Positions 1,610-13,151 of a stretch of 20,352 nt of DNA are shown here, one piece after another; positions within the stretch are counted from its first letter, which is position 1; every line of letters begins with the position of its first letter. The position numbers and the translations under genes were made by a program. The stretch is taken from IMG/VR virus record IMGVR_UViG_3300010367_000170. One strand, written 5' to 3'. Under the pieces are notes generated by a model that saw only the letters and a program-made list of their open reading frames with translations, was not told the origin of the DNA and made no database searches. Source of the DNA: a virus (Duplodnaviria > Heunggongvirae > Uroviricota > Caudoviricetes).

Positions 1610-1623
1610 GGTCCACGGCCCTG

Positions 1624-1662
1624 AGCGGAAGCCCCCGGAAGACAACTCCGGGGGCTTCCGCT
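1624..1662 (+). terminator. 16-bp perfect stem-loop downstream of the CDS, probable intrinsic terminator
   Basis: agcggaagcccccgga (1624-1639) pairs with tccgggggcttccgct (1647-1662), 15 nt after the stop codon; no long U-tract. Confidence 0.65.
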
Positions 1663-1681
1663 TGCCTGCGTAGCGGGAGCG

Positions 1682-2568: not shown

Positions 2569-2613
2569 ACACCGGTGGGGCTACGGTTTGTTCTCCGCGT
2601 CTCCTAGACAGCG

Positions 2614-2651
2614 CGAAGCCCCCGAACCGGGAAGCTGGTTCGAGGGCTTCG
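2614..2651. terminator. Stem-loop between convergent genes, probable bidirectional terminator
   Basis: cgaagccc-ccgaacc pairs with ggttcga-gggcttcg, between the stops at 2568 (+) and 2661 (-). Confidence 0.6.
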
Positions 2652-2660
2652 TTGTCTCGG

Positions 2661-2972
2661 TCAGATGCCCAGGGCGTCCAAATCCTCCAGGAACTGGCCC
2701 GCCTTCACCGAAGCGGTGTTGGCGTACCCCGGCAGGTTCTTCTGCCGCAGCGCGTCGGCCAGCGGGCCGATGACCCAGGAGTTCAGGTACGCCGCCTGCT
2801 CCGAGCGCCACTGGCGCTCTGCCTCACCGCCGTCGGCTGCCAGGCAGTTGATCATCACGTCCTTGCAGTCCGGGTCGGCCAGCTTCAGGACGGCGTCCAG
2901 GGCTGCCAGCAGGGCCTTGTTGCGGAATTCGTTGCTCTGCTCCAGGCGGGACTTGTGGGTGTTCGCGAGCAT
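2661..2972 (-). CDS. Hypothetical protein (103 aa, helical)
   Basis: SD GGAGG upstream of ATG, GC3 bias; no recognised motif. Confidence 0.7.
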   Translation of the reverse strand: MLANTHKSRLEQSNEFRNKALLAALDAVLKLADPDCKDVMINCLAADGGEAERQWRSEQAAYLNSWVIGPLADALRQKNLPGYANTASVKAGQFLEDLDALGI

Positions 2973-2996
2973 GGTGTTTCCTCCGGTTCTAGCTGG

Positions 2997-3386
2997 TTAC
3001 TTCAGCAGCGCGCGGGTGCGGTTGAGGAAGTCGTGGATGGCGGCGACCTCCATGCGGTAGCTCATCTGCTCGTGGGCAGTGAACACCAGGTCGGTGGCGG
3101 ACAGTTCGTAGATGCGCGTGTTGGCCTTGAGGTGCGCCTCCGCCAGGGAGTCCTCCCAGGAGATGTCGGGCATCTGAGGTTCGGCTTGGAACACCCAGTT
3201 GCGGAAGTGGACCGCCCTCATGTACTCGCTGAGGTCGGGGATCTCGTTGACGGCGATCTCGCCTCTGGCCCGGTCGCGGTAGCGACGGAGCTTGGTGAGG
3301 GCCAGGTCGCGCAGTCCGCCGGACGCGTGGAACGCCTGTTCGATGGCCTGCTGGTTGCCTTCGGACTTGCTGAGTACCTTCGCCAT
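2997..3386 (-). CDS. Hypothetical protein (129 aa, MAKVLSKSEG...)
   Basis: Start reassigned to ATG 3386, preceded by GGAGGAG; GC3 bias. Confidence 0.7.
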   Translation of the reverse strand: MAKVLSKSEGNQQAIEQAFHASGGLRDLALTKLRRYRDRARGEIAVNEIPDLSEYMRAVHFRNWVFQAEPQMPDISWEDSLAEAHLKANTRIYELSATDLVFTAHEQMSYRMEVAAIHDFLNRTRALLK

Positions 3387-3538
3387 GCTGTCTCCTCCGG
3401 TTGAGAGCTTGGGAGTTACCATGCTAGCCGAATCGGTAAGCGAAGTAAAGCTATCCTGGAGTTGCCTGAGAACGCCAGCCATACGCCGCAACTGGCCGCG
3501 ACGCAACCAAGCCTCCAGAGCCTCCGAACGATCCGCCG

Positions 3539-3937
3539 TCAGTCCCACCACGACCCCAACCGGTCCACAAGCCTGTGCAACGCGGCCTGCACCTTCTCCT
3601 GCTGCTCCGCCGTCGCCGCGTATGCGAACTTGTCGTAACCCGCCAGATCCGAACGGATCCCCTCCAGATACTCCCCCCACTCCTTCTCGCAGTCGCACCC
3701 CTCACTACCAGGAGCCGCGTGCGAACACGGGTAACCGCATCCGTACTCCAACATCTTCTTGGCTGCGGCCTCCACCAACGCCACCAGGAACGTATCGAAA
3801 CTCCACCACCAAAGGTCCGGGACGAAATCACCGTTGTCGGTGAACAGCGGCACCAAATCCTTCGGCATGGAAGGCAGCGGCGGCTCCGAGGTCGGCTTGT
3901 AGTTCGGGTTGACGATCGGGCTGTCCAAATCGCTCAC
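3539..3937 (-). CDS. Hypothetical phage protein (132 aa)
   Basis: GTG 3937 with GGAGG SD, just downstream of the terminator; Trp/acidic-rich with a C-x3-C-x8-CxC patch. Confidence 0.6.
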   Translation of the reverse strand: MSDLDSPIVNPNYKPTSEPPLPSMPKDLVPLFTDNGDFVPDLWWWSFDTFLVALVEAAAKKMLEYGCGYPCSHAAPGSEGCDCEKEWGEYLEGIRSDLAGYDKFAYAATAEQQEKVQAALHRLVDRLGSWWD

Positions 3938-3952
3938 GCTTTCCTCCAGACG

Positions 3953-3991
3953 AAAAAGGGCGGGCACCTCGCGATGGGAGGTGCCCGCCCT
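3953..3991 (-). terminator. Intrinsic terminator of the Ro/TROVE transcript
   Basis: 14-bp perfect stem agggcgggcacctc/gaggtgcccgccct followed by a U-tract on the minus strand, 6 nt after the TROVE stop. Confidence 0.8.
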
Positions 3992-3997
3992 AGCCTG

Positions 3998-5620
3998 CTA
4001 GTTGTCGATCTCCCACGGCCAACCGGCGTCACGGCCCCGCGACAACAAGTCCATCATCGTGAACATGGCGTCGGAGAAACCGCCGATCTCGAACCGGTTC
4101 GGGTCGGAGGTGTTGATGGACGTGGACGCGTAGCCGGAGGTGTTGATACCGAAGACCGGAACGTCCCTCGGAACCGAGTTCGACACCGACGCCCCGCCCC
4201 AGCCCGACGACAGGTGCGTCTGCATGTCGGAGATGATCACCACGCGCTTGTGGATCGTCTCACGGAACGTCGCCCGCACCGCCTCCACCGTCTTCGTGCC
4301 GTGACCCACCGTGCCGACCTTCGCGCAGAAGCTGTCGATCTGCTTCAACGCCGACCCGCCCTTGACCAGGTTGTGCGGGAACACCACGTTGCCGTAGCCG
4401 TCACCGGCGAAGCCGTACAGCTCCACGTCGTTGCCGCGCATCGCCAACGCCACACCGAACAGCGCGCCGACGTCCACGTGCCGCACCTTCGACTTCTCCG
4501 ACACCGTGTCCAACATCGAACCGGAAGTGTCCACCAGCACCAGCGTCGAACCGGAGAACTCCGGCAGGTTCCCGCACGCCGCATCCAAGCCCTTGTCCAA
4601 CGCGTGGCCCCACCGCAACGACGGAGCAGCCCGGTACGCCGACAACAGCCGGTACGGGAACACCCGCGCCTTCCGGATGTCCTCCGGGTTGGACAACTTC
4701 TCGCACACCTGCGCCGCGACCTTGTCCGAGACCTTGGCCTCATCAAAGTTGCGCAGGTTCCGCATCAGCGCGAACGCGCCCATGGACGGGATGATCGCCT
4801 CCCACGCCTTCGCGTCCATCGGACCCTGAAGCCACCCGGCCAGCGACTCCCACGTCATACCAGCCTCAGCCAGGCGCTCGGAGCCGTCGGCGGACAGCAA
4901 CACCTTCCGGCGCTCACCGACCGGCATCTCCATCAGAGCCTGCCGCGCCGCCAGCGTCTTGTTGCCCTCCGGCAGACGCACATCCGACCGGTTGTGACGC
5001 CGGTCCAGCGCGTAGCGGAACAGCTCCCCCTGCCACGGCTTGTCATCCGCCGGAGACGGGTGCACCAAGTCGATGACGTCACCGAACCGGTAGGCGCTGT
5101 TGTCGGAGTCGTACTTCAGCAGGTTCTTGCCGTTGTACAGCCGCCGAACAGCGTCGGCCACACCGCGCTTCACCGGCTTCGGCAGCTTCCGGCCGTAGTG
5201 AGACGTCCAGTACGACAACAACTCACCCGGCTCGTCAGCGCGCTGGCAGGCGGCGTCGATGAGGGTGCGCCCAGCCGGGGTCTGCTTCGCGTCCAGGCGC
5301 GCCTTCACCGCCTCGCAGGCGGCCACGACAGACGCCGAGCGCATGTTGGCCTTGGTGCGCAGCCACAGCACAAACCCGTGCATCCAGCCGTAGTCCTCCA
5401 CGGCGACCTTACGAACCAGGTCCCGGAAACGGGCATCACGGGCAGACGCCGACTCGTAAAACGTGGACTCGCCCACCATGTTGGTGACAGCCAGCAGCAG
5501 CAGAGCTGACTGGTCGTCGTGGCTCCAAGCCAAACCGCCCTCGTGGGTGCGGGCCGGTGCGGTCGTGGCCATCGGGGACTTCACCGACGGCTGCGCACCC
5601 TTGGTGTTGAACTTGCTCAT
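3998..5620 (-). CDS. rsr: Ro60-related RNA-binding protein (TROVE plus vWA domain), 540 aa
   Basis: Hallmarks THEGG, LAVTNMVGESTFYESA, ALMRNLRNF, vWA MIDAS LVDTSGSM and IISDMQT. ATG 5620 with SD AAGGAGG. Confidence 0.93.
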   Translation of the reverse strand: MSKFNTKGAQPSVKSPMATTAPARTHEGGLAWSHDDQSALLLLAVTNMVGESTFYESASARDARFRDLVRKVAVEDYGWMHGFVLWLRTKANMRSASVVAACEAVKARLDAKQTPAGRTLIDAACQRADEPGELLSYWTSHYGRKLPKPVKRGVADAVRRLYNGKNLLKYDSDNSAYRFGDVIDLVHPSPADDKPWQGELFRYALDRRHNRSDVRLPEGNKTLAARQALMEMPVGERRKVLLSADGSERLAEAGMTWESLAGWLQGPMDAKAWEAIIPSMGAFALMRNLRNFDEAKVSDKVAAQVCEKLSNPEDIRKARVFPYRLLSAYRAAPSLRWGHALDKGLDAACGNLPEFSGSTLVLVDTSGSMLDTVSEKSKVRHVDVGALFGVALAMRGNDVELYGFAGDGYGNVVFPHNLVKGGSALKQIDSFCAKVGTVGHGTKTVEAVRATFRETIHKRVVIISDMQTHLSSGWGGASVSNSVPRDVPVFGINTSGYASTSINTSDPNRFEIGGFSDAMFTMMDLLSRGRDAGWPWEIDN

Positions 5621-5668
5621 TACAGTTCCCTCCTTGTTTGTGGCGGAGGGAGAAGGCAACGCGGTGAC

Positions 5669-5778
5669 GCCCGAGATCCAGTCAGCTGCGGTGACACCGA
5701 CCGGCGAACCGGACGGTTTCAGGGGTTGAACCTGACCTTGTAAGGATTACCGAAGTAACCGCAGCTTACGCACCGGGC
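5669..5778 (-). ncRNA. Y-RNA-like gene A (T-arm plus UUCG hairpin, no clear D arm)
   Basis: Terminal helix GCCCG-GUGCGUAAGCUGCGG / CCGCAGCUGACUGGAUCU-CGGGC, shared UACUUC linker, T-arm UCAGG-UUCAACC-CCUGA; directly upstream of rsr. Confidence 0.75.
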
Positions 5779-5792
5779 ATCGGCGCGTTTCC

Positions 5793-5932
5793 CCTCCCGA
5801 GATCCAAACGGCTGCGGTCAGCTAGGGCAGGATTCGAACCTGCGACCTTTCCGCTCGCGCGGAACGCTCTACCAACTGAGCTACCCGGATGGTTGTTGTA
5901 TCCGAAGTAACCGCTGCCTACGCACCGGGAGG
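5793..5932 (-). ncRNA. Y-RNA-like gene B (D arm, GNRA-capped arm, T arm in normal tRNA order)
   Basis: Same terminal motifs GGUGCG and UGGAUCUC. Inner GCUC-AGUUGGUA-GAGC, UUCCGC-GCGA-GCGGAA, GCAGG-UUCGAAU-CCUGC. Confidence 0.8.
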
Positions 5933-5943
5933 TGCGTGTTTAG

Positions 5944-6033
5944 TTATTCGCCCTTGCAGCAGCCGCACTCGCCGCAGTGCATCGCCAGGCCGCAGTTGCA
6001 GCCCCAAGGACGCCATCTGATCCAGAACTTCAT
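5944..6033 (-). CDS. 29-aa Cys-rich micropeptide MKFWIRWRPWGCNCGLAMHCGECGCCKGE
   Basis: ATG preceded by GGAGGAGAAGC; 6 Cys; fits exactly in the gap between Y RNAs B and C. Confidence 0.5.
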   Translation of the reverse strand: MKFWIRWRPWGCNCGLAMHCGECGCCKGE

Positions 6034-6060
6034 GCTTCTCCTCCAGGCTTCGAACTGAAA

Positions 6061-6167
6061 TCCCCTGAGATCAAGTCGGTGACGGGGTGCCCAGCCAATG
6101 GGCCACCCCCGCGAGGTGGGGGTGTTTGGATTCGAACCGAAGTATCCGTCACTGTCGCACCAGGGGA
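6061..6167 (-). ncRNA. Y-RNA-like gene C (YrlA-like; short T-arm, closed acceptor-like hairpin, D arm)
   Basis: UCCCCUG-GUGCG / UGAUCUC-AGGGGA ends; GG-UUCGAAU-CC; CACCCCC/GGGGGUG hairpin; GCCC-AUUGGCU-GGGC. Confidence 0.8.
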
Positions 6168-6186
6168 AAGCTTGTTCGGTTGTGGC

Positions 6187-6328
6187 GGTCCTGAGTTCCA
6201 AGACGGCTTTGGGCTTACGTCCGTTGCTCTACCAGATTGAGCCACCGTCCGAGGGTGCCGGACGGGCTGGATTTGAACCAGCAACCCACGGCTCCAAGAG
6301 AAGTATCCAATGCCTACGCACCAGGACC
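6187..6328 (-). ncRNA. Y-RNA-like gene D (YrlA-like circularly permuted tRNA module)
   Basis: T arm GCUGG-UUCAAAU-CCAGC, then 7-bp acceptor-like CCGUCCG/CGGACGG closed by a loop, then UG-GCUC-AAUCUGGUA-GAGC D arm; terminal motifs conserved. Confidence 0.85.
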
Positions 6329-6340
6329 GCAAAGGTTTTG

Positions 6341-6482
6341 GCCTGCCAGAGATCCAAACGACTTGGGTAACGTTGACGTGCTGTCCATTACACCACCACC
6401 CCACGAGTGGGGTGGGCCGGAATCGAACCGGCACCTCCGGATCCGTATTCCGAAGTAACCCATGTCTGCGCACCTGGCAGGC
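6341..6482 (-). ncRNA. Y-RNA-like gene E (YrlA-like circularly permuted tRNA module)
   Basis: GCCUGCCAG-GUGCG / UGGAUCUC-UGGCAGGC ends; GCCGG-UUCGAUU-CCGGC; CCACCCC/GGGGUGG closed acceptor-like stem; D-like GUGU-AAUGGAC-AGCAC. Confidence 0.85.
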
Positions 6483-6550
6483 GCGTTGTTGTTCACCCCT
6501 GAACGGGGTGCGCCGTCTCCCGGATCGGGGGGGACGGGAGACGACGCGGG

Positions 6551-6625
6551 TAGCGGCGACGGGATTTGAACCCGCGATCTTCAGATTGAAAGTCTGACGA
6601 GCTTTCCAGACAGCTCCACACCGCC
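6551..6625 (-). tRNA. tRNA-Glu (TTC)
   Basis: Full cloverleaf; TCAGA-CT-TTC-AA-TCTGA; T loop TTCAAAT. Confidence 0.93.
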
Positions 6626-6754
6626 TTGCATGTCGGGTACCGAATCTCCGACTCCCTGGCCAACGAACGACTCCCTACCCTCACGGGCAGCCAGGCCCTT
6701 ACGCAGCTCTGCCGGTCCCTCCAACACCCGTGAACCCTTGTTGGAGGGACCAGG

Positions 6755-6828
6755 AGCCGTCACCGAGGTTCGAACTCGGAACACGTTCTTACCAAGAACG
6801 TAGCGTTGCCAGTTACGCCCACAACGGC
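6755..6828 (-). tRNA. tRNA-Thr (GGT)
   Basis: Cloverleaf; CGTTC-TT-GGT-AA-GAACG. Confidence 0.9.
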
Positions 6829-6968
6829 TTGTCCCGCGCACCCAACTGAACCGACTCCCCGTAGGGGTCTGCTCCACACCTGAACTTGTGCTCACCGGCG
6901 CGGGACGGTGAGCGTGCGCCTCAGACTGGTTCAGATGGCAACTTCTTACCGGCTGTTCCGCTCGCCGG

Positions 6969-7103
6969 TCACGGCTTCTTGCTCTTCTGCTGGCCTACCT
7001 TGCTCCAGGACACACCGGGGACCGGCATGCCACCCGGGAACAGGTGCGGGAACTTCCGTGCCCGCGCCAACATCTTCTTGCGCTTGTTCCGGCTGTAACT
7101 CAC
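6969..7103 (-). CDS. 44-aa highly basic small protein MSYSRNKRKKMLARARKFPHLFPGGMPVPGVSWSKVGQQKSKKP
   Basis: GTG preceded by AGGAGGAGGAGAA; lies in a tRNA-free gap; K/R-rich with no acidic residues. Confidence 0.6.
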   Translation of the reverse strand: MSYSRNKRKKMLARARKFPHLFPGGMPVPGVSWSKVGQQKSKKP

Positions 7104-7124
7104 TTCTCCTCCTCCTCTGTAACC

Positions 7125-7214
7125 GGGCTGGATCCCCGCAGGAGTCGAACCTGCCCTAGGAGTTGACGCAGGTTATCGGCCTACGCCGCTGGCCCTTCAG
7201 CTAAGGTCCAGCCC
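7125..7214 (-). ncRNA. Atypical tRNA-like element (CC-GAT-AA loop, long variable region, extended bulged acceptor helix)
   Basis: T arm GCAGG-TTCGACT-CCTGC; GTAGG-CCGATAA-CCTGC; ends GGGCTGGACCTT/GGGGATCCAGCCC pair over about 12 bp. Confidence 0.5.
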
Positions 7215-7216
7215 TG

Positions 7217-7288
7217 TACCGCACGCGAGACTTGAACTCGCAGAACCTGCTTGGAAGGCAGGCGGGTTGCCAATTACCCCAGTGCGGC
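7217..7288 (-). tRNA. tRNA-Gly (TCC)
   Basis: Cloverleaf; CCTGC-CT-TCC-AA-GCAGG. Confidence 0.92.
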
Positions 7289-7389
7289 ACACCCACCGTC
7301 CCCAGTTTCTGTGGGGGCGGGTGGTGCAGCAGACTTTGCGCTCAGGCGTCTACCGGTCCTGCTTCTTCCCCTCCGAGGAGGGACGCGCG

Positions 7390-7464
7390 TAGTCCGTACG
7401 GGATTTGAACCCGTGGTCTTCACCTTGAGAGGGTGACGAGATAGGCCAGCTACTCCAACGGACC
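7390..7464 (-). tRNA. tRNA-Glu (CTC)
   Basis: Cloverleaf; TCACC-CT-CTC-AA-GGTGA. Confidence 0.92.
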
Positions 7465-7469
7465 TCGCG

Positions 7470-7542
7470 CTGCGTCGGCAGGCTTCGAACCTGCATTGTC
7501 CAAGTTCAAAGCCTGGGGTCCTGCCAGTTAGACGACGACGCA
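7470..7542 (-). tRNA. tRNA-Gln (TTG)
   Basis: U1-A72, G73; CCAGG-CT-TTG-AA-CTTGG. Confidence 0.92.
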
Positions 7543-7547
7543 TAGCG

Positions 7548-7621
7548 CTGCACTGTCAGGATTCGAACCTGAAACCACCCGATTCAGAGCCGGGAGCGCT
7601 GCCAGATTGCGCCACAGTGCA
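7548..7621 (-). tRNA. tRNA-Gln (CTG)
   Basis: U1-A72, G73; CCCGG-CT-CTG-AA-TCGGG. Confidence 0.92.
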
Positions 7622-7897
7622 TTGCGCGGACTTCGGTCTGAGCCGTCCGCTGAGCCCGATGGACTTCACGCGTAGCCGTCTGCCCTGGGGTCTGGCTTGG
7701 CCGTATACCCCATTAGGCGACCTGTTCAACATACCGGCCCGTACGTCCGGCACCTCCGGGGATAACCCTCCAGGCGCTTCCCAGCCTCCCGGTCTTAGCG
7801 CGACCGGTAGTAACAGCTCCACGGCTCAAATCCCTGTCAGGATCCCCTGTCATAAGCGTGCAGGACTCTGGCCTCGACATGGGCCAGGCTGCGCGCG

Positions 7898-7978
7898 TGG
7901 GAGTGGTAGGTGTCGAACCTACAATGCTCGAAAGCGCGGGCTTTACAGGCCCGCTGGCAGACCGCTGCACTCACTCCC
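7898..7978 (-). tRNA. tRNA-Tyr (GTA)
   Basis: CGGGC-CT-GTA-AA-GCCCG; long variable arm GCT-TTCG-AGC. Confidence 0.9.
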
Positions 7979-8020
7979 GAAACCCCTTACGGGGCCGGTG
8001 TTGACGTTCCTCGCTAGGTG

Positions 8021-8099
8021 AAGCCCGGAGCGGAGTCGAACCGCTATCCACGCGCTTTGCAGGCGCGCTCTAGATACCGTCTAGATGAGGACCCGGGCA
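8021..8099 (-). tRNA. tRNA-Cys (GCA), atypical D arm
   Basis: CGCGC-CT-GCA-AA-GCGCG, U73. D region contains TCTAGA-CGGTA-TCTAGA; 1:72 mismatch. Confidence 0.75.
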
Positions 8100-8190
8100 A
8101 CGGAGCCGTCCGCCCGGTCCAGCCACGGTCAGCCTCCGAGGGGGTGGAGGCAATATCGGCAGCTTGCGCATCGGACCGGTACGGACGACG

Positions 8191-8262
8191 TGCCTCCGGT
8201 GGGATTCGAACCCACGTCGAACCACTTAGAAGGTGGTCTCCCATCCTCTGGGCGACGGAGGC
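8191..8262 (-). tRNA. tRNA-Arg (TCT)
   Basis: Cloverleaf; ACCAC-CT-TCT-AA-GTGGT. Confidence 0.9.
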
Positions 8263-8403
8263 GAGCGGGTCCACCGTCCTCAGATCCCCCGCCGTCGCTA
8301 GGGATTGTTCGATTCGCGGTGGACCCTAAAGTCCAGGAGGGGGAGGTACGTGGGCCGCTGGCCACGGTAGGCCACGCTTCTCGGCCAGTCCCTTCTGGAC
8401 TTG

Positions 8404-8477
8404 CGCTCGTGACGGGACTTGAACCCGTGACCTCCTGATTGACAATCAGGTGCCCTAACCGTCTGGGCCACACGAGC
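8404..8477 (-). tRNA. tRNA-Asp (GTC)
   Basis: CCTGA-TT-GTC-AA-TCAGG; G73. Confidence 0.93.
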
Positions 8478-8509
8478 CGGACGCAGGCGAACCTGCGCTT
8501 TTGTTCTAC

Positions 8510-8632
8510 CTAGTTCCCCTTCGTGCAGGTGTGCGGTCCCTTCCTGAGGCACACGATGTGCGAGTGGACAGCGCAAGCGAAGCACCCGCACGAACACATA
8601 CAACGCCTAGCCAGCAACAACAGATGTTTCAT
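8510..8632 (-). CDS. 40-aa Cys/His-rich micropeptide MKHLLLLARRCMCSCGCFACAVHSHIVCLRKGPHTCTKGN
   Basis: ATG preceded by GGAGGGAGGAGAAG; 7 Cys and 4 His; fills the gap between tRNA-Lys and tRNA-Asp and is followed by a UUCG hairpin. Confidence 0.5.
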   Translation of the reverse strand: MKHLLLLARRCMCSCGCFACAVHSHIVCLRKGPHTCTKGN

Positions 8633-8647
8633 CTTCTCCTCCCTCCG

Positions 8648-8719
8648 TGCGCCGCGAGGGTGTCGAACCCCCGACCCCTCCGTTAAGAGCGGAGTGCTCT
8701 ACCGTTGAGCTAGCGGCGC
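8648..8719 (-). tRNA. tRNA-Lys (CTT)
   Basis: CTCCG-CT-CTT-AA-CGGAG. Confidence 0.93.
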
Positions 8720-8832
8720 AGGTGAAGCAGGGGCCTGAGTTGAACAGGCCAGCGGGCCGTCGCCCTTTTCTCCTAAGGAACCCACCAAGGGTGCGCGGGA
8801 ATCGAACCCGCCACTGCCGGTTCCCTGCCTCG

Positions 8833-8904
8833 CAGGTCGCCAGGGACTTGAACCCTGTTCCACGGATTAAAAGTCCGTTACATAGCCATACATGCTCGCG
8901 ACCC
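8833..8904 (-). tRNA. tRNA-Lys (TTT)
   Basis: ACGGA-CT-TTT-AA-TCCGT; G73. Confidence 0.88.
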
Positions 8905-9038
8905 ATAAGCCCCACCATTCCGCAGTCAAGAGGAAGGCGGGGAACATTGGGGCCAGGCCAGGGTTCAACCCTTCCCGGAAGCACGGGGTTCGTACGGCCC
9001 AGCCAGGAACAGCCCGGATCAGGGGCTGCTGCTCCAAG

Positions 9039-9113
9039 TAGCGGGGACAGGATTTGAACCTGCGATCTCTGGATTATGAGCCCAGCGGGGACACCGAACT
9101 CCCCCACCCCGCG
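9039..9113 (-). tRNA. tRNA-Met (CAT), initiator-like
   Basis: CGCGGGG 5' end with C1:U72 mismatch; CTGGG-CT-CAT-AA-TCCAG. Confidence 0.88.
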
Positions 9114-9135
9114 TCGGCGCGGCGAACCGCGCTCG

Positions 9136-9207
9136 TGTCCTCGACAGGAATTGAACCTGCGCGCCCCGGGCTTCAACCGGATGCTCTTCCAACTGAGCTA
9201 CAAGGAC
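9136..9207 (-). tRNA. tRNA-Phe (GAA)
   Basis: TCCGG-TT-GAA-GC-CCGGG. Confidence 0.9.
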
Positions 9208-9359
9208 GTTGCCCGCCTACTGAATCAGTGCCGTACCCAAAGGACGTGTCCGGAGATCTCCTCCGGCTCTACAACAGCGGGCCGCATACAACGCACTCCA
9301 AAGGTATGCGAGCTTTGGCCGTCGTCAACGCCCCATCGGTGAGGCGTTGAGCGTGTGCG

Positions 9360-9430
9360 AGCCCTTGGCGGGAATCGAACCCACGTTGCCTCCCTGGCAA
9401 GGAGGTGTCTTGCCGCTAGACGACAAGGGC
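9360..9430 (-). tRNA. tRNA-Gly (GCC)
   Basis: CCTCC-TT-GCC-AG-GGAGG; U73. Confidence 0.93.
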
Positions 9431-9540
9431 GAACATCGTCCGGTAGGTGGTCCCGCTACCGCCACAAACACGGAAACGCGTACGGGCCGTGTTCCGCCAC
9501 CCCTTACCGCCCGTTCAGACCGGACGATGAATTTACTGCG

Positions 9541-9614
9541 AGCCCTGAGCCGGGGTCGAACCGGCGACCTCCGTTTTACGAGAACGGCGCTACTTCCAAC
9601 TGAGCCACCAGGGC
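9541..9614 (-). tRNA. tRNA-Thr (CGT)
   Basis: CCGTT-CT-CGT-AA-AACGG. Confidence 0.92.
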
Positions 9615-9699
9615 GCGGCAGCTGTTGCACAGGGGAACTGCCTACCCCTTCACCACCCCCATCACGGCCTGTCCTCCAACGGCCGTGACGGTTAGTGCG

Positions 9700-9771
9700 T
9701 AGCCCCACCGGGATTCGAACCCAGGCCTGCACCTTCGGAGGGTGCTGCGCTGTCCGCTGCGCTATGGGGCT
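9700..9771 (-). tRNA. tRNA-Arg (CCG)
   Basis: GCACC-CT-CCG-AA-GGTGC. Confidence 0.92.
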
Positions 9772-9908
9772 GTGTTGACCAACTCTCTTACAAGGTTAAG
9801 GCTCTGACTAGGCGCCATACAGCCTTGTAGAGAGGCGGGGGAGGCCACCCACCCTGATCCCGCATTGTCCGCAGCCCCTCGCCGGTCAAGGCTACTCACT
9901 GCGGCATG

Positions 9909-9981
9909 CTGTCCCAGCAGGGTTCGAACCTGCGACCTGAGGATTAACAATCCACTGCTCTGCCTACTGAGCTATAGGACA
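9909..9981 (-). tRNA. tRNA-Asn (GTT)
   Basis: GTGGA-TT-GTT-AA-TCCTC (one mismatch); G73. Confidence 0.9.
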
Positions 9982-10108
9982 ACGCCCCGCAAAGTTGCGC
10001 ACCCTCGCGGGGTTGTTGAGATGGGCGGGAACTGAACCAGCCTCTGAGCCTGCCGATTCGGGCGCCCCTAGTTCTCAGTTCTTAAGGGTCCGCTATTCCC
10101 ATCTCTCG

Positions 10109-10181
10109 TGCGTCTACAGGGACTCGAACCCCGAACCTGCTGGGTGTAGGCCAGCTGCTCTTCCAATTGAGCTACAGACGC
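10109..10181 (-). tRNA. tRNA-Val (TAC) with C33
   Basis: GCTGG-CC-TAC-AC-CCAGC; otherwise canonical cloverleaf. Confidence 0.85.
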
Positions 10182-10277
10182 TCCCGGGAGGGGGCAGCGC
10201 CGAACGCGCTGCCCTAGTCCTCCCTTGTAGGTATACCGGGCCTGGGGTATACCAGCCCAGGTGATCGACACTTGCCC

Positions 10278-10346
10278 GTGAGGCGGCTGGAATCGAACCA
10301 GCTTCGGGAGTCTTCGCGAAACCCTACGTAACCAACGTCCACCTCC
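10278..10346 (-). pseudogene. Degenerate tRNA-like element, TC-GCG-AA loop (Arg GCG-like)
   Basis: Perfect T arm GCTGG-TTCGATT-CCAGC; 6-bp acceptor; short D arm ACGT-TGGTT-ACGT; C33. Confidence 0.5.
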
Positions 10347-10400
10347 AGCGGGTAGCGAACCCGCCTTCACCGGGTTCAGGACGCGTTCCTGAGTACCGGC

Positions 10401-10476
10401 TGGTGTCCCCGGGAGGAATCGAACCTCCAACCTCCTGATTCGTAGTCAGGTGCCCTATCCGTTGGGCCACGGAGAC
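10401..10476 (-). tRNA. tRNA-Arg (ACG), CCA encoded
   Basis: CCTGA-CT-ACG-AA-TCAGG; ends A-CCA. Confidence 0.95.
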
Positions 10477-10635
10477 ATGACGATTATCGCAGGCCAGGAA
10501 CCGTCGCCCGGTAGTAGCGCAAGATCCATTTGCGCCCTGCTTGTCACGCACATTCGCAGCAAAATCAGGGGACACCCTGGGGTACTTGGGATAACCGGAG
10601 GTGTTGCTGCCCGGAGCGTGACCGCACCGTTCCCG

Positions 10636-10704
10636 TGGTCAGTGCGGGATTCGAACCCGCATCCAGTCACAAGTGGACCCGCTCAGCCGTTGAGCTACCT
10701 GACC
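10636..10704 (-). pseudogene. tRNA-like element with aberrant anticodon arm (GGTC-CACTTGT-GACT)
   Basis: Canonical D arm (GCTC-AACGGCT-GAGC) and T arm, 6/7 acceptor pairs; 4-bp anticodon stem, no U33. Confidence 0.6.
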
Positions 10705-10714
10705 CTGCTGTACG

Positions 10715-10786
10715 TGGAAATGAAGGGACTCGAACCCTTGACCCGACCGGCACATATCCGGCGCTCTGCCGCTGAGCTACATCCCC
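10715..10786 (-). tRNA. Non-canonical tRNA: Ala-type acceptor (G3:U70, A73) with AT-ATG-TG anticodon loop
   Basis: GGGGATG/CATTTCC-A acceptor; canonical D and T arms; CCGG-ATATGTG-CCGG. Confidence 0.65.
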
Positions 10787-10901
10787 TAGGTGGCCGGGCT
10801 GTACGGGACTTACCGGCCGTGCATGCTGCCGCTGACAGAAGCGTTCCCGTCTGGTTCCTGGCGTACCGGCAATCTAAGGCACCGACGTCCCGTCACCATT
10901 G

Positions 10902-10975
10902 TGCTCACAGAGGGATTTGAACCCTCACTTGCGGCGGTTTGAGCGCCGTGCCTCTGCCGATTGGGCTACGTGAGC
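10902..10975 (-). tRNA. tRNA-Leu (CAA), short variable loop
   Basis: CGGCG-CT-CAA-AC-CGCCG; variable region only CAAGT; A73. Confidence 0.9.
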
Positions 10976-11083
10976 TGGAAGCGCAGTCCCGTGCGGGAGG
11001 AGAAGTCACCGCACGGGACTACTTACTCCAAGACCTTTGCTGCCGCCGGAGGAAAGCCTGTAAGCCGACAGGTCTCGGAGTCG

Positions 11084-11157
11084 TTGCCACGGCTGGATTC
11101 GGACCAGCGACATACGCCTTATCAGAGCGCTGCTCTACCAGGCTGAGCTACGTGGCA
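11084..11157 (-). tRNA. tRNA-Ile (GAT)
   Basis: GCGCT-CT-GAT-AA-GGCGT; T-loop variant TCCGAAT. Confidence 0.88.
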
Positions 11158-11278
11158 TTGTCGGACGGCCTGCGCGAGGCAGGCCACCGACGTCTACGTT
11201 CATTTACATCATCGTCGCTGTTGAGTTCTCAAGGTTCCAGGAGCTTCGTGCCGACGTACAGCGCGCTCCAAACGTGCG

Positions 11279-11349
11279 CGTCCTTGAAGGGATTCGAACC
11301 CTCGCTTGCCCACCAGGAACTGGGCGCTCTACCGTTAAGCTACAAGGAC
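11279..11349 (-). tRNA. tRNA-like, probably Arg(CCT)-derived, with an irregular 8-nt anticodon loop
   Basis: Perfect acceptor GTCCTTG/CAAGGAC, D and T arms; CCCA-GTTCCTGG-TGGG. Confidence 0.55.
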
Positions 11350-11363
11350 ACCTTGTTCAGTTG

Positions 11364-11426
11364 TACGGGGACCGGAGTCGAACCGGAACCTCAGCCGTGC
11401 ACTGCTACTCTCCCACCCGGACCCGC
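11364..11426 (-). pseudogene. Highly degenerate tRNA-like remnant
   Basis: T arm CCGG-TTCGACT-CCGG and a partial acceptor GCGGG/CCCGT; D and anticodon arms are poor. Confidence 0.35.
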
Positions 11427-11524
11427 TTGGCAGGCCCGTTTTCCCCTCGCGGGGACACCCAACCAGTTCGGACCTGGCGGTTCCGGCGTTGAAACTCCAC
11501 GGGCCAACAGGGTCGTCGCCTTCG

Positions 11525-11580
11525 TGGACCCAGAGGGTTTCGAACCCTCCCACGCGCGTCAGCCCCCAGGGCTTGGGCCC
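11525..11580 (-). ncRNA. 56-nt mini-tRNA: full acceptor with G3:U70 and A73 plus T arm, no anticodon arm
   Basis: GGGCCCA/TGGGTCC-A; GAGGG-TTCGAAA-CCCTC; only one small hairpin (AGCCC-TGG-GGGCT) between them. Confidence 0.55.
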
Positions 11581-11611
11581 GTATTCAGTTGTTGGCTCCG
11601 TCCTACCGGAG

Positions 11612-11684
11612 GGTGATGTGCGGGAATCGAACCCGCTGCTGCCTGGATCACAACCAGGTCCCCGACCGGAGGGGCTACACCACC
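11612..11684 (-). tRNA. tRNA-His (GTG)
   Basis: G-1:C73 pair; CCTGG-TT-GTG-AT-CCAGG. Confidence 0.88.
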
Positions 11685-11690
11685 AAGAGG

Positions 11691-11771
11691 TCTCGCCAGA
11701 GATCCAAGGCGACTCCGGATCTGAATTCATTCCCAAAACGAAGGAACCGGGGTCATGCGCACCTGGCGAGA
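11691..11771 (-). ncRNA. Y-RNA-like gene F (minimal: terminal helix only, no tRNA module)
   Basis: UCUCGCCAG-GUGCGCAUGACCCCGG-UUCCUUC ... CCGGAGUCGCCUUGGAUCUC-UGGCGAGA; same motifs as copies A-E. Confidence 0.7.
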
Positions 11772-11790
11772 TCTGTGAAGTTTTAGGTTG

Positions 11791-11939
11791 TGCATCCCCC
11801 AGAGGTCCAGTCGATCAGGCGATCGTAGGCGCTCTGCCGCTGAGCTACAGTCCCGGTTTCCCGGCACCGGCAGGATTCGAACCTGCGACATCCCGCTTAA
11901 AAGGCGAAGAACTCCTGGTCTGCGCACCTGGGGGGTGCA
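11791..11939 (-). ncRNA. Y-RNA-like gene G (complete four-arm permuted tRNA with a Lys UUU-type anticodon loop)
   Basis: CCCCCAG-GUGCG / UGGACCUC-UGGGGG ends. UUCGC-CUUUUAA-GCGGG, AUGUC, GCAGG-UUCGAAU-CCUGC, GAAA-closed acceptor-like helix, UA-GCUC-AGCGGCA-GAGC. Confidence 0.82.
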
Positions 11940-11986
11940 TCGTCTTCCCTTTGGGGCTTTCGCTCCGTCGTTCCGGCGATGTCTTT

Positions 11987-12016
11987 ACGATACCGCGTTT
12001 CGGCTCCGGGCGTCTA
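11987..12016 (-). promoter_or_regulatory. Candidate sigma70/HrdB-type promoter for the RNA array
   Basis: TAGACG-18 nt-TATCGT on the minus strand, about 50 nt upstream of Y RNA G; motif match only. Confidence 0.35.
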
Positions 12017-12541
12017 ATCGAAATCCAACACCTGGACCGGTTTCACGTTCCCAGCATCCCCGTCTCGGAGCCGGATAGCAAGATCACCGTCGGGGGCTTC
12101 GAAGACTTCGAACTTGGACGGGCCGCGACGGCGCCAACCCGGATCCCGGATGTCCAGCACCTTCTCAGGCGAAGCCTGACCGGAAGCCAGCTCCAGAAGC
12201 AACGGCGTGTCCTCCGGATACAAGTCCATAGGGCGCACCGCGAAACCCTCCAGAACAGGCGTCTCAAGCCAAGCCACCGGGTTGCCAACCCCGTGGCGGG
12301 ACAGCATGTCCGTGACAGCCAGAAGATGCGCCACCTTCATCGCGTCGGAGAACCACGCCTTGTCGCCGCGCCTCCAACTCTGGACGTCGAAGACGTTGGT
12401 GTTCAACATCCTCGCGACGTCCCTCAGGGCGAAGCCCATGTCCACCAGCTCCTCCACCGAAGCGGCCTTACCGTTCCTGCGACGCTCCATCTGAAGCTTG
12501 TGGAACGTTGACACGTCCTCAGAAGTCACCAACGTCATCAC
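12014..12541 (-). CDS. HTH protein resembling Xre/MbcA/ParS-type antitoxins
   Basis: HTH-like 'GFALRDVARMLNTNVFDVQSWRRG' followed by 'NPVAWLETPV..RPMDL'; SD AAGGAGG; family call by pattern only. Confidence 0.5.
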   Translation of the reverse strand: MMTLVTSEDVSTFHKLQMERRRNGKAASVEELVDMGFALRDVARMLNTNVFDVQSWRRGDKAWFSDAMKVAHLLAVTDMLSRHGVGNPVAWLETPVLEGFAVRPMDLYPEDTPLLLELASGQASPEKVLDIRDPGWRRRGPSKFEVFEAPDGDLAIRLRDGDAGNVKPVQVLDFD

Positions 12542-12719
12542 CTCCTTTGGGTGGCTCCACGCAACCGTGGATCTTGCGGTAATCGTTCAGGTCAGGGTTG
12601 GGATGCGCCTCGCCGCGCAACGAGTACTCGCACTCCTCGGACAGCTGCCGAGCCTGCTCCGGAGACAGACAAGACGGCCAGTCGCAGATACGGCACACCC
12701 GGAACTTAGGAGCCGTCAT
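12519..12719 (-). CDS. Small Cys-containing hypothetical protein (66 aa)
   Basis: CRIC..PSC..C; overlaps both neighbouring genes, as typical of phage operons. Confidence 0.5.
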   Translation of the reverse strand: MTAPKFRVCRICDWPSCLSPEQARQLSEECEYSLRGEAHPNPDLNDYRKIHGCVEPPKGGDDVGDF

Positions 12720-12936
12720 ACTCCTCGTCCTGCTGCCGGTGGCGAGTCATCGACTCCACCATCTCCATGAAGTCTTTCCACGGCATGCCCACCAGCTCTA
12801 CCGTGCCGCCCGTCTCCAAGTCCGGGTCATGTGCGATGAAGGTGACGGTCCCTCCAGGCCGGTACTCGGTGATGAGGTGTTCGGTGTCCTCTTCGGCTTC
12901 GTCATACGCGTACACGTACTCCCAGGTACGGCCCAT
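12706..12936 (-). CDS. Acidic hypothetical protein (76 aa, MGRTWEY...)
   Basis: ATG overlaps the upstream TGA; SD GGAGGAG. Confidence 0.65.
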   Translation of the reverse strand: MGRTWEYVYAYDEAEEDTEHLITEYRPGGTVTFIAHDPDLETGGTVELVGMPWKDFMEMVESMTRHRQQDEEYDGS

Positions 12937-13151
12937 CACTGCTCCTCCGGGAAGACTATGGTGACGACTGCCGATGCAACCAGGCGTTCGACCTCTGCCA
13001 TGAGGTCGAACCATTGGTCGTCGGTCAGCCAGTTGTTCTCTGGAATCTCGGCCAGCGTGTCATTGGCGGGGAACGGCGCGTTGAGACGGTTGAGGATCAC
13101 CAGCCGAGCTAGCTGCTGAACGCGCAGCGGAGCAATATCAGAAGGCGCCAT
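12936..13151 (-). CDS. Hypothetical protein (71 aa, MAPSDIAPL...)
   Basis: Start chosen at the ATG overlapping the end of the HAD gene; coupled to the downstream gene. Confidence 0.55.
   Translation of the reverse strand: MAPSDIAPLRVQQLARLVILNRLNAPFPANDTLAEIPENNWLTDDQWFDLMAEVERLVASAVVTIVFPEEQ

What the first reader, a model, noticed from the sequence alone, without database searches (positions are those of the whole stretch)
3998..11939. Phage-type Ro60/Rsr gene with seven Y-RNA-like genes embedded in a tRNA array
Seen in sequence: seven minus-strand elements share a terminal helix with 5' GGUGCG, a CUUC linker and 3' U(G)GANCUC, and most enclose tRNA-like arms. Five sit directly upstream of a clear TROVE-vWA gene. 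Established: bacterial Rsr binds Y RNAs, YrlA RNAs mimic tRNA and lie near rsr, and the RNP acts in RNA decay/repair. Inference: this element encodes its own diversified Ro RNP set, co-expressed with 23 tRNAs. The helix is a variant of the canonical GUCCGA/UUGAC Ro site, so the call rests on context and architecture.
Basis: partly seen in the sequence, partly recalled or inferred. Interest (0 to 1): 0.9.

Follow-up and report, generated by a model that had tools for sequence, protein, structure and literature searches.

The report
Phage Ro60 gene with seven Y RNAs
A soil actinobacterial phage carries a Ro60/Rsr gene plus seven small Y-RNA genes in its tRNA gene cluster; the RNAs belong to the known Y-RNA family of its likely hosts, so this is an unusually large set of a known system, not a new one.

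Summary
Exactly seven minus-strand elements share a covarying terminal stem, GGUGCG, a second covarying stem, a UACUUC junction and a 3' UKGAnCUC. The pattern gives 7 hits against 0.2 expected by chance. Five lie 45-860 nt upstream of a TROVE+vWA (Rsr) gene that ends at a strong terminator. Two lie at the far end of a 24-26 tRNA array.

A covariance model built only from these seven finds the same RNA next to rsr, on its strand, in 9 other actinophages. It also finds 217 hits in 79 of 80 chromosomal actinobacterial rsr loci. About 90% of helix cells pair, against 33-49% in slid controls. So the "variant helix" is the ordinary actinobacterial Y-RNA (YrlA/YrlB-type) scaffold, not a phage invention. 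The window's Rsr nests among Catenulispora/Streptomycetaceae proteins.

Rfam YrlA scores all of these below its threshold, including known mycobacteriophage YrlAs. Eighteen soil metatranscriptome runs hold the locus.

Phage Ro60-Y RNA particles are already published (Chen 2014; Thermus phage phiLo 2025). This scan has also noted similar loci many times on other DNA. What is new is the copy number (7, against a mode of 3 in bacteria), the swapped tRNA-mimic modules and the missed annotations. Verdict: new member of a known kind, moderate interest.

The parts
3957..3991 (-). Intrinsic terminator-like hairpin (14 bp, 11 G-C, then a T run) directly after the rsr stop codon; probable end of the transcription unit
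3998..5620 (-). rsr: Ro60/Rsr-type protein with TROVE ring and vWA domain with DxSxS MIDAS motif. Probable start is the ATG at 5620 behind AAGGAGGG; the longest ORF runs to a TTG at 5659
   Evidence: Pfam TROVE 1e-12 and VWA_2 3e-4. phrog_850 9e-55 over residues 14-552. PDB 9KOP/9L5Y phage phiLo Ro60 1.4e-22. 50-60% identity to chromosomal actinobacterial Rsr. D364/S366/S368 invariant
5664..5782 (-). E7: Y RNA copy nearest rsr. Scaffold plus a T-arm-like hairpin (loop UUCAACC) and a UUCG-capped hairpin; no D arm
   Evidence: R1 94.9 bits; fold
5790..5934 (-). E6: Y RNA scaffold enclosing a tRNA-like body in normal arm order (D arm, 6-bp hairpin capped by GCGA, T arm). The scaffold matches the chromosomal Catenulisporales Y RNA at 30 of the first 31 nt
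   Evidence: R1 107.2 bits. ARAGORN 'tRNA-???' with a 2-nt anticodon at 5816-5891. Rfam tRNA 46 bits with acceptor mismatches. Alignment A6
6058..6169 (-). E5: reduced Y RNA. Scaffold, degenerate T arm fused to the UACUUCGG junction, 7-bp closed acceptor-like stem, degenerate D-like hairpin
   Evidence: R1 90.3 bits; fold
6184..6330 (-). E4: the most canonical YrlA-like copy. Scaffold, small V hairpin, T arm, 7-bp closed acceptor-like stem, D arm
   Evidence: R1 100.1 bits; Rfam YrlA 42.3 bits, E 7e-7 at 6218-6290
6340..6482 (-). E3: Y RNA with V hairpin, T arm, 7-bp closed acceptor-like stem and a degenerate D arm
   Evidence: R1 129.6 bits; Rfam YrlA 21.9 bits, full-length alignment
6549..11683 (-). 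tRNA array (about 24-26 tRNA genes, same strand) lying between the two groups of Y RNA genes
11690..11771 (-). E2: short (82 nt) Y RNA with the scaffold and one small hairpin only. It matches the ~75-80 nt short form found in most chromosomal loci (YrlB-like)
   Evidence: R1 53.6 bits; short forms
11793..11936 (-). E1: Y RNA carrying a nearly complete permuted tRNA. It has a 5-7 bp hairpin with the 7-nt loop CUUUUAA, a 5-nt linker, T arm, GAAA-closed acceptor-like stem and D arm
   Evidence: R1 113.5 bits; Rfam YrlA 28.4 bits at 11828-11893; hairpin analysis

Best explanation
The region is one minus-strand phage unit: E1-E2, then a tRNA array, then E3-E7, then rsr, then a terminator. The seven elements are Y RNA genes of the actinobacterial YrlA/YrlB-type family.

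Each RNA has a docking handle. This is a covarying terminal stem, a conserved asymmetric internal loop (5' GGUGCGYA opposite 3' YUKGAUCUC), a second covarying stem and a UACUUC junction. Each handle carries a different inner module: a permuted tRNA body, a normal-order tRNA body, a reduced body, or none.

Shown here: the family, its structure, its strict linkage to rsr in about 90 loci, and its presence in RNA libraries.

Inferred by homology with M. smegmatis, D. radiodurans, S. Typhimurium and Thermus phage phiLo: the RNAs are cut out of a common precursor together with the tRNAs. The conserved loop binds the outer surface of the phage Rsr ring. The inner modules recruit tRNA-recognising or RNA-decay proteins, above all host PNPase. 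The phage would thereby redirect or damp host decay of structured RNA during infection.

The cassette was probably captured from a Catenulispora/Streptomycetaceae-like host and then expanded from 1-3 to 7 copies, with the modules exchanged.
For: - Seven copies against 0.2 expected by chance; 7/7 terminal-stem pairs in each.
- The window-only model R1 finds full-length, same-strand hits beside rsr in IMG/VR loci L001-L005 (2, 4, 4, 4, 6 hits), VanLee, Kela, Atuin and Rabbitrun. It gives 217 hits in 79 of 80 bacterial rsr loci, all within about 600 nt upstream.
- A plain motif count gives 219 hits in 56 kb upstream against 107 in 1.44 Mb elsewhere.
- Covariation: 91% and 90.5% of cells paired against 33-49% when partners are slid; 16 of 17 pairs show double changes; no shuffle reached the observed share of paired cells or the covariation score (0/500).
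- Rfam YrlA local hits on E4, E1 and E3 score like chromosomal copies and the known mycobacteriophage copy.
- The Rsr protein has TROVE, vWA and MIDAS. Its best solved relative is phage phiLo Ro60, which binds two upstream phage Y RNAs and host PNPase (PMC12135203).
- M. smegmatis YrlA and YrlB lie upstream of rsr and are processed from one precursor (PMC4201824).
- A terminator follows rsr.
- 18 of 20 public runs that hold 5600-6600 are soil metatranscriptomes. Exact RNA-library contigs span E7-E3 together with the rsr 5' part, and span E1/E2.
- The window's Rsr nests within bacterial Rsr next to Catenulispora, and the E6 handle is nearly identical to the Catenulisporales chromosomal copy.
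Against: - No copy reaches the Rfam YrlA gathering score (best 42.3 against 69).
- None has the literal GNCGAA motif.
- No Rfam Y_RNA hit at E<=10.
- Binding to Rsr, discrete RNA ends and any PNPase link are untested here.
- The RNA-library contigs cannot show strand, ends or level, and DNA carry-over cannot be excluded.
- E1 and E2 lie about 6 kb from rsr, outside the 4-kb criterion of Chen 2014.
- The alignments used for the pair counts were fitted to the model, which favours the structure.
- No promoter was found.
Confidence: 0.82

Rival explanations
1. The elements act mainly as free tRNA decoys or inhibitors. Their tRNA-like modules would soak up or block host tRNA-targeting enzymes such as anticodon nucleases, protecting the phage's own tRNA supply. 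In this reading Rsr is a chaperone or is dispensable, rather than the centre of an RNA-decay particle.
For: - E1 shows a 7-nt CUUUUAA loop on a 5-7 bp stem. The homologous hairpin in relatives has the form CU-NNN-AA with many different middle triplets (VanLee copy CUUCUAA).
- The elements sit within a tRNA array, and a PNKP-type phosphatase gene lies nearby at 13138-13836. RNA ligase genes lie at or near rsr: adjacent in Kela, about 5 kb upstream in Rabbitrun.
- Hughes et al. 2020 proposed that the YrlA tRNA-like domain may competitively inhibit an anticodon nuclease (PMC7790460).
Against: - The most conserved part of every copy is the handle, not the tRNA-like module. E2 and the chromosomal short forms have no module at all.
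- Strict linkage to rsr in about 90 loci argues that Rsr is central.
- No anticodon nuclease or target is identified here.
Confidence: 0.1
2. The elements are cis-acting parts of a long primary transcript. They would be leader structures that let Rsr autoregulate its own mRNA, or processing and stability signals for the tRNA array, rather than stable trans-acting RNAs.
For: - Five copies lie in what would be the 5' leader of rsr, the last only 45 nt from the start codon.
- RNA-library contigs run through E7-E3 into rsr.
- M. smegmatis Y RNAs come from one precursor.
Against: - E1 and E2 are 6 kb away, on the other side of the tRNA array.
- In Atuin the copies lie downstream of rsr.
- Homologous RNAs in M. 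smegmatis and phage phiLo are discrete RNAs bound by Rsr/Ro60 (PMC4201824, PMC12135203).
- Contigs cannot show a single transcript.
Confidence: 0.06
3. The elements are decayed tRNA genes or tRNA-derived repeats produced by recombination within the tRNA array, with no role of their own.
For: T-arm and D-arm sequences occur in most copies. ARAGORN calls a tRNA inside E6 and inside the VanLee homologue.
Against: - The shared handle is not tRNA-like. It is conserved with compensatory changes across phages and about 80 bacterial genera or species.
- The T-arm-before-D-arm order and the closed acceptor stems are conserved features of YrlA (PMC4201824).
- E2 has no tRNA part.
Confidence: 0.02

Closest known systems
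Actinobacterial YrlA/YrlB Y RNAs with Rsr (M. smegmatis; Chen et al. 2014, PMC4201824; Rfam RF02553 YrlA)
   Same: Several Y RNAs in tandem upstream of rsr on its strand. A 5'/3' stem with a conserved purine-rich motif near the 5' end. A tRNA-like body with the order T arm, closed acceptor-like stem, D arm. A shorter companion RNA without the full body. Seven-bp acceptor-like stems as in the M. smegmatis YrlA that RNase P cleaves. The window's handle equals the consensus of 200+ chromosomal actinobacterial copies.
   Different: Seven copies instead of 2-4. Two of them are displaced to the far end of a tRNA array. One copy (E6) has the normal tRNA arm order. The motif reads UGCG(Y/A)A rather than GNCGAA. 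All copies score below the Rfam threshold.
Mycobacteriophage (cluster C1, e.g. ET08, Bxz1-like) Ro-like protein with YrlA (Chen et al. 2014: 22 phages)
   Same: A phage-encoded Ro60 homologue with a tRNA-mimicking Y RNA upstream, in a phage that also carries many tRNA genes.
   Different: The Ro proteins are only about 24% identical. In the one cluster C1 phage examined here (Dandelion) only a single YrlA-like hit was seen, which my model barely detects (11.6 bits) and Rfam scores at 36 bits. The window belongs to a separate, host-derived lineage.
Thermus phage phiLo Ro60 with Yrl1/Yrl2 and host PNPase (NAR 2025, PMC12135203; PDB 9KOP, 9L5Y)
   Same: A phage Ro60 with Y RNA-like genes just upstream. 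A stem-bulge-stem handle with a CGAA-type motif. This is the best solved relative of the window's Rsr (E 1.4e-22). It gives an experimentally shown mechanism: Ro60-Y RNA-PNPase complexes that attenuate PNPase.
   Different: Two RNAs without a described tRNA-like body, against seven with diverse tRNA mimics. Different host phylum. No biochemical data for the window's system.
D. radiodurans Rsr-Yrn1-PNPase (RYPER) and S. Typhimurium rsr-yrlBA-rtcBA operon
   Same: A Y RNA as a two-module adaptor, with a Ro-binding stem plus an effector module with tRNA features. E6 has the D-before-T order described for Yrn1, including a non-anticodon loop on the middle arm (PMC4201824).
   Different: No RtcB/RtcA/RtcR in the window. 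There is no sequence-level match to these RNAs. The PNPase link is not tested here.

Membership tests
YrlA-type bacterial/phage Y RNA (Chen 2014; Rfam RF02553) | Encoded within about 4 kb of rsr and on the same strand | tested here: met
   E3-E7 lie 45-860 nt upstream of the rsr start on the same strand. E1 and E2 are on the same strand but about 6.1-6.3 kb upstream, outside the 4-kb rule.
YrlA-type bacterial/phage Y RNA (Chen 2014; Rfam RF02553) | GNCGAA(N0-1)G motif near the 5' end | tested here: not met
   The seven copies read GGUGCGCAG, GGUGCGUAG, GGUGCGUAA or GGUGCGACA. None has the literal motif. At the homologous position many relatives read GGUGCGAAG, which contains the CGAA core.
YrlA-type bacterial/phage Y RNA (Chen 2014; Rfam RF02553) | tRNA-like domain with the order (V hairpin) - T arm - closed acceptor-like stem - D arm | tested here: met
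   Clear in E1 and E4, and in E3 with a degenerate D arm. Rfam YrlA local or global alignments score 28.4, 42.3 and 21.9 bits. E5 and E7 are reduced, E6 has the opposite order and E2 has none.
YrlA-type bacterial/phage Y RNA (Chen 2014; Rfam RF02553) | Score at or above the Rfam gathering threshold (69 bits) | tested here: not met
   The best score is 42.3 bits. In the loci checked, chromosomal actinobacterial copies (33-50 bits: 14 loci at the gathering threshold, 7 with E-value scores) and the mycobacteriophage Dandelion copy (36 bits) also fail. For the actinobacterial loci checked, the threshold therefore does not separate members from non-members.
YrlA-type bacterial/phage Y RNA (Chen 2014; Rfam RF02553) | Bound by Rsr in vivo or in vitro | not testable with these tools
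   No RNA-protein test is available. It needs co-immunoprecipitation or EMSA.
Actinobacterial rsr-linked handle RNA (model R1, defined here) | Covarying terminal stem + GGUGCG + covarying second stem + UACUUC + UKGAnCUC, next to rsr | tested here: met
   All seven score 53.6-129.6 bits. They built the model, so this is by construction. Independent support comes from hits in 9 phage loci and 79 of 80 bacterial rsr loci, and from pairing of 90.5% against 33-49% when slid.
Metazoan-type Y RNA (Rfam RF00019) | Match to the family model, i.e. the GGUCCGA/UUGAC bulged helix | tested here: not met
   No Y_RNA match at E<=10 in 3500-12500. The resemblance of GGUGCGYA/UUGAUCUC to GGUCCGA/UUGACC is seen by eye only.
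Ro60/Rsr protein | TROVE (HEAT-repeat ring) domain followed by a vWA domain with a MIDAS motif | tested here: met
   Pfam TROVE 1e-12 and VWA_2 3e-4 (below the Pfam cut-off). phrog_850 9e-55 full length. DxSxS (D364, S366, S368) invariant in 6 proteins. PDB 9KOP/9L5Y 1.4e-22 and human RO60 9NEN 4e-4.
tRNA (for the body inside E6) | Cloverleaf with a 7-bp acceptor stem and a 7-nt anticodon loop | tested here: not met
   The Rfam tRNA score of 46 bits passes threshold, but with mismatched acceptor pairs and a shortened loop. ARAGORN reports a 2-nt 'anticodon'. The middle arm is a 6-bp stem capped by GCGA.

The most novel reading that the evidence does not exclude
The phage has turned a host Rsr/Y-RNA cassette into a small library of interchangeable tRNA mimics on one Rsr-docking handle. 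The modules include a permuted tRNA showing a Lys-type UUU loop (E1), a normal-order tRNA body with a capped middle arm (E6) and reduced forms. They are transcribed with its tRNA array. Each module would engage a different host tRNA-recognising enzyme (anticodon nucleases, PNPase, RNase P, modification enzymes). The set would then work as an anti-defence or tRNA-protection system rather than as simple RNA quality control.
Probability: 0.15. Interest if true: 0.75.

Novelty: new member of a known kind. Interest (0 to 1): 0.45.

Why it matters
Y RNAs are among the least understood conserved non-coding RNAs, and what their variable modules do is an open question. This locus shows seven modules on one invariant handle in a single phage. 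It also has clear chromosomal counterparts in the likely hosts and is present in many soil RNA libraries. That makes it a compact natural experiment: swapping or deleting modules could show which host proteins each recruits.

There are practical gains too. The work gives a covariance model that detects actinobacterial and actinophage Y RNAs which Rfam YrlA misses at its threshold. It also exposes annotation errors in deposited phage genomes: a 'tRNA-Arg' in VanLee, small 'hypothetical proteins' in Rabbitrun, and unannotated gaps in BRock.

It does not reveal a new kind of system. Phage Ro60-Y RNA particles and their link to host PNPase are already published.

Tried and rejected
- **Near-identical phage genome:** megablast against 50,697 phage records found none. 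No whole genome is held for the window.
- **Rfam at gathering thresholds:** gave only tRNAs in the window and in the five IMG/VR loci. In the 14 bacterial loci it gave tRNAs plus one glycine riboswitch and one Scr4115 sRNA hit. No YrlA hit appeared anywhere, so membership had to be tested otherwise.
- **Exact-motif regex from the window:** found nothing in the five phage relatives. Only the covariance model bridged the divergence.
- **Promoter scan:** no sigma-70-like site in 3900-12600, so the start of the unit is unknown.
- **RNA-library cover outside the unit:** the four runs gave no or almost no contig cover on 12124-14500 and 3302-3702. Contigs of three runs begin at 3993-3995, just past the rsr stop. 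This fits a unit running from E1 to the terminator. However, gaps in contig cover prove nothing, and no DNA run was laid for comparison, so I do not count it as evidence.
- **Joints:** these link tRNA T-arm repeats and look like assembly chimeras.
- **Spacer 11350-11610:** it carries two T-arm-like motifs and a tmRNA-like GGGGCUGA start. It folds no better than shuffles (z -0.53) and has no ARAGORN or Rfam match, so it is not claimed as an RNA gene.
- **Pairing inside the conserved internal loop:** I looked for a metazoan-style bulged helix. The bases do not vary, so no covariation test is possible.
- **Complex prediction:** not used, because it cannot take RNA.
- **Rsr tree:** the careful search did not finish. 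Only the quick tree (SH-aLRT, midpoint root) is reported.

Full report
**What is there**

The window is 63.7% G+C. It has no near relative among 50,697 deposited phage genomes and no whole genome is held for it. Its genes are phage-like:
- a PHROG 'RNA-binding protein' (Ro);
- a polynucleotide-kinase-type phosphatase;
- a TET/JBP oxygenase;
- several PHROGs of unknown function.

All of 3957-11936 is organised on the minus strand. A TROVE+vWA gene occupies 3998-5620 (longest ORF to 5659). Its support is Pfam TROVE 1e-12, phrog_850 9e-55 and an invariant DxSxS MIDAS motif. It is followed at once by a 14-bp terminator hairpin at 3991-3957. Next comes an array of tRNA genes at 6549-11683 (27 ARAGORN calls, 25 Rfam calls). 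The remaining two elements follow at 11690-11936.

**Check of the observation**

The seven elements are real and specific.
- GGTGCG-N13-14-CTTC occurs seven times, only in them, against 0.20 expected.
- In each copy the seven bases ending at the first G of GGUGCG pair perfectly with the seven bases starting at the last C of GA(N)CUC.
- Folding each copy and reading the alignment gives one common plan. There is a terminal stem whose sequence differs from copy to copy but always pairs. Then comes a conserved internal loop (5' GUGCGYA opposite 3' YUKGAUCU), a second 7-9 bp stem that also covaries, the junction UACUUC, and a variable inner module.
- A covariance model with filters off finds no eighth copy. 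Scores fall from 53.6 to 19.9 bits.

**Inner modules**

| Copy | Module |
|---|---|
| E4 | Classical YrlA order: small hairpin, T arm, 7-bp closed acceptor-like stem, D arm (Rfam YrlA 42.3 bits, E 7e-7) |
| E1 | Same order, plus a 5-7 bp hairpin with the anticodon-like loop CUUUUAA |
| E3 | Same order with a degenerate D arm |
| E5, E7 | Reduced forms |
| E2 | 82 nt, no tRNA-like part |
| E6 | tRNA-like body in the normal order: D arm, hairpin capped by GCGA, T arm. ARAGORN calls it a tRNA with a 2-nt anticodon; Rfam tRNA scores 46 bits with a mismatched acceptor stem |

**Is the family linked to Ro genes elsewhere?**

I built model R1 from the seven copies only, giving it just the two stems.

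- *Phage relatives.* The Rsr protein retrieved five IMG/VR phage contigs at 42-47% identity. Deposited phages followed: BRock, VanLee, Kela, Atuin and Rabbitrun at 37-44%, and mycobacteriophages at only about 24%.
- *Phage hits.* R1 finds full-length hits in every one of the non-mycobacterial loci. They are always on the rsr strand and adjacent to rsr. There are 2, 4, 4, 4 and 6 hits in L001-L005, with six in tandem in L005 ending 40 nt before rsr. VanLee and Kela have two each, Atuin has three downstream of rsr, and Rabbitrun has two or three.
- *Bacterial hits.* A scan of one genome per prokaryotic species with the Rsr alignment returned 80 chromosomal loci of Streptomyces, Kitasatospora, Catenulispora, Lentzea, Actinomadura and others, at 49-60% identity. 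R1 gives 217 hits there, in 79 of 80 loci. All are on the rsr strand and within about 600 nt upstream.
- *Independent motif count.* A plain motif count agrees: 219 hits in the 56 kb upstream, against 107 in the other 1.44 Mb.
- *Covariation.* On 24 and on 77 aligned sequences, 91% and 90.5% of helix cells pair, against 33-49% when partners are slid by 1-3 columns. Sixteen of 17 pairs show changes on both sides, and no shuffle reached the observed share of paired cells or the covariation score (0/500). The alignments were fitted to the model, which favours the structure. The terminal stem, however, is anchored by invariant flanks without gaps.

**What the family is**

The consensus of the chromosomal copies is CCCGGUGCGCAGG ... 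UACUUC ... GAUCUCGGG. This is the window's motif. The handle is therefore the ordinary Y-RNA scaffold of these actinobacteria, not a phage variant of the Ro site.

The same chromosomal elements give Rfam YrlA scores of 33-50 bits. The copy upstream of the Ro gene of mycobacteriophage Dandelion belongs to the phage group in which Chen et al. reported YrlA. It scores 36 bits. All are below the 69-bit threshold, so in the actinobacterial loci checked the Rfam cut-off does not separate members from non-members.

Chen et al. 2014 (PMC4201824) described the following:
- YrlA-like RNAs beside rsr in 254 bacteria and 22 phages;
- the T arm / acceptor stem / D arm order;
- a GNCGAA motif near the 5' end;
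- for M. smegmatis, YrlA and a shorter YrlB, both upstream of rsr, processed from one precursor and bound by Rsr.

The window's copies fit this description, with two exceptions. The motif reads UGCG(Y/A)A, and one copy (E6) has the arm order that the paper describes for D. radiodurans Yrn1.

**Origin**

In a quick maximum-likelihood tree the window's Rsr lies inside a well-supported bacterial clade, next to Catenulispora. It is apart from the BRock/Atuin/Kela phage clade (quick search, midpoint root). The first 31 nt of E6 differ at one position from the chromosomal Catenulisporales copy, while the inner module is unrelated.

Chromosomal loci mostly carry three copies (56 of 80 loci; range 0-4) and the nearest bacterial relatives carry one to three. 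By the plain motif count, five phage loci carry four to six (BRock, L001, L002, L003, L005); the other deposited phages carry two to four. The window carries seven. The simplest reading is capture of a host rsr-Y RNA cassette, followed by duplication and module exchange in the phage.

**Expression**

Of 20 public runs holding at least 57% of the sampled words of 5600-6600, 18 are soil metatranscriptome libraries, each from a different coded study. In four of them, contigs without a single difference cover these regions:
- the whole E7-E3 cluster together with the 5' part of rsr (5263-6553, 5423-6514, 5604-6491);
- E1/E2 (11732-11964, 11214-11922).

Contigs cannot show strand, ends or abundance, and DNA carry-over is possible. 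This is supportive but not decisive.

**Mechanism**

- *Shown here:* a conserved structured RNA family, strictly linked to rsr, and present in RNA libraries.
- *Inferred from published systems:* the handle binds Rsr, and the modules recruit other proteins. In D. radiodurans the Y RNA tethers Rsr to PNPase (as summarised in PMC7790460). In Thermus phage phiLo the Ro60 is the best solved relative of the window's protein (E 1.4e-22). It binds two phage Y RNAs encoded just upstream, and with them it forms complexes with host PNPase that attenuate the enzyme (PMC12135203).
- *Most likely reading:* the phage makes its own Rsr particles, loaded with seven different adaptors, to redirect or damp host RNA decay.
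- *Less likely but more novel reading:* the tRNA-like modules act as decoys for host tRNA-targeting nucleases. Hughes et al. proposed this for YrlA. It is suggested here by the anticodon-like loops and by the nearby RNA-repair-type phosphatase.

**Verdict**

This is a new, unusually rich member of a known kind of system. This scan has noted phage Ro60 genes with handle-bearing small RNAs many times on other DNA, which does not change the score. Interest is moderate.

Noticed in passing
window 11793-11936 (E1); L006 4704-4846; bacterial loci L079, L052, L070, L021, L047, L030, L043, L038: In the long Y RNA subtype the hairpin between UACUUC and the T arm is a 4-5 bp stem with a 7-nt loop of the form CU-NNN-AA, like an anticodon loop. 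The middle triplet differs between genomes: UUU in E1, UCU in VanLee, and GCU, GGU, GAA, UCU, CUU, CCU, GUU, GCA in bacteria. My search required U at loop position 2 and a purine at position 6. The C at position 1 and A at position 7 were not required, yet are constant in these copies.
   Followed up: partly
L006 4707-4778 (Gordonia phage VanLee, NC_073474.1 65454-65525): The annotated tRNA-Arg(tct), also called by ARAGORN, lies inside a 143-nt Y RNA hit (63.5 bits). It uses the Y RNA handle as its 'acceptor/D' part, so it is probably a mis-annotated Y RNA. A third, short handle-bearing copy is visible at about 4862-4942.
   Followed up: partly
L009 4436-4793 (Gordonia phage Rabbitrun gp93, gp94); L011 2463-3042 (Streptomyces phage BRock): In Rabbitrun two small 'hypothetical protein' CDSs overlap the Y RNA hits (4493-4612, 4701-4844). 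In BRock the four Y RNA hits fill an unannotated 580-nt gap between tRNA-Asn and the Ro gene.
   Followed up: partly
L036 (MAG Micromonosporaceae scaffold_6) 734-3961; also L052: A contig binned as a bacterial genome carries 23 tRNA genes in one array, directly followed by three Y RNA hits and rsr. This is the same architecture as the window, so it is probably a phage or prophage.
   Followed up: no
window 5944-6033 (-), 6969-7103 (-), 8510-8632 (-): Three very small ORFs lie inside the RNA gene cluster, each behind a strong GGAGGAG-type ribosome-binding site. One is a 29-aa cysteine-rich peptide between E5 and E6. One is a 44-aa very basic peptide. One is a 40-aa cysteine-rich peptide.
   Followed up: no
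window 8023-8098 (-); also T-arm-like GGTTCRA motifs near 11546, 11384, 10299, 8808 (-): More tRNA-like pieces exist than ARAGORN calls. 8023-8098 looks like a tRNA with a GCA (Cys) loop and an odd D arm (Rfam tRNA-Sec model 29 bits, below threshold). Several spacers carry lone T-arm motifs. The 261-nt spacer 11350-11610 starts like a tmRNA (GGGGCUGA) but folds no better than shuffles.
   Followed up: partly
window 13138-13836 (-) and 16778-20352 (-): A polynucleotide-kinase-type HAD phosphatase (PF25109, 2.5e-46) lies 1.2 kb upstream of E1. A TET/JBP oxygenase sits further on with an FAD-dependent oxidoreductase and other genes. In Kela an RNA ligase gene directly precedes the Ro gene, and in Rabbitrun one lies about 5 kb upstream.
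   Followed up: no
many chromosomal loci, e.g. L017 3668-3809, L031 3713-3791, L020 3796-3871; window E6: One paralogue class of the Y RNA has the nearly invariant terminal stem CACCUCCCGG ... CUCGGGAGG. This contains the anti-Shine-Dalgarno-like CACCUCC paired to a Shine-Dalgarno-like GGGAGG. Whether this means anything is unknown.
   Followed up: no
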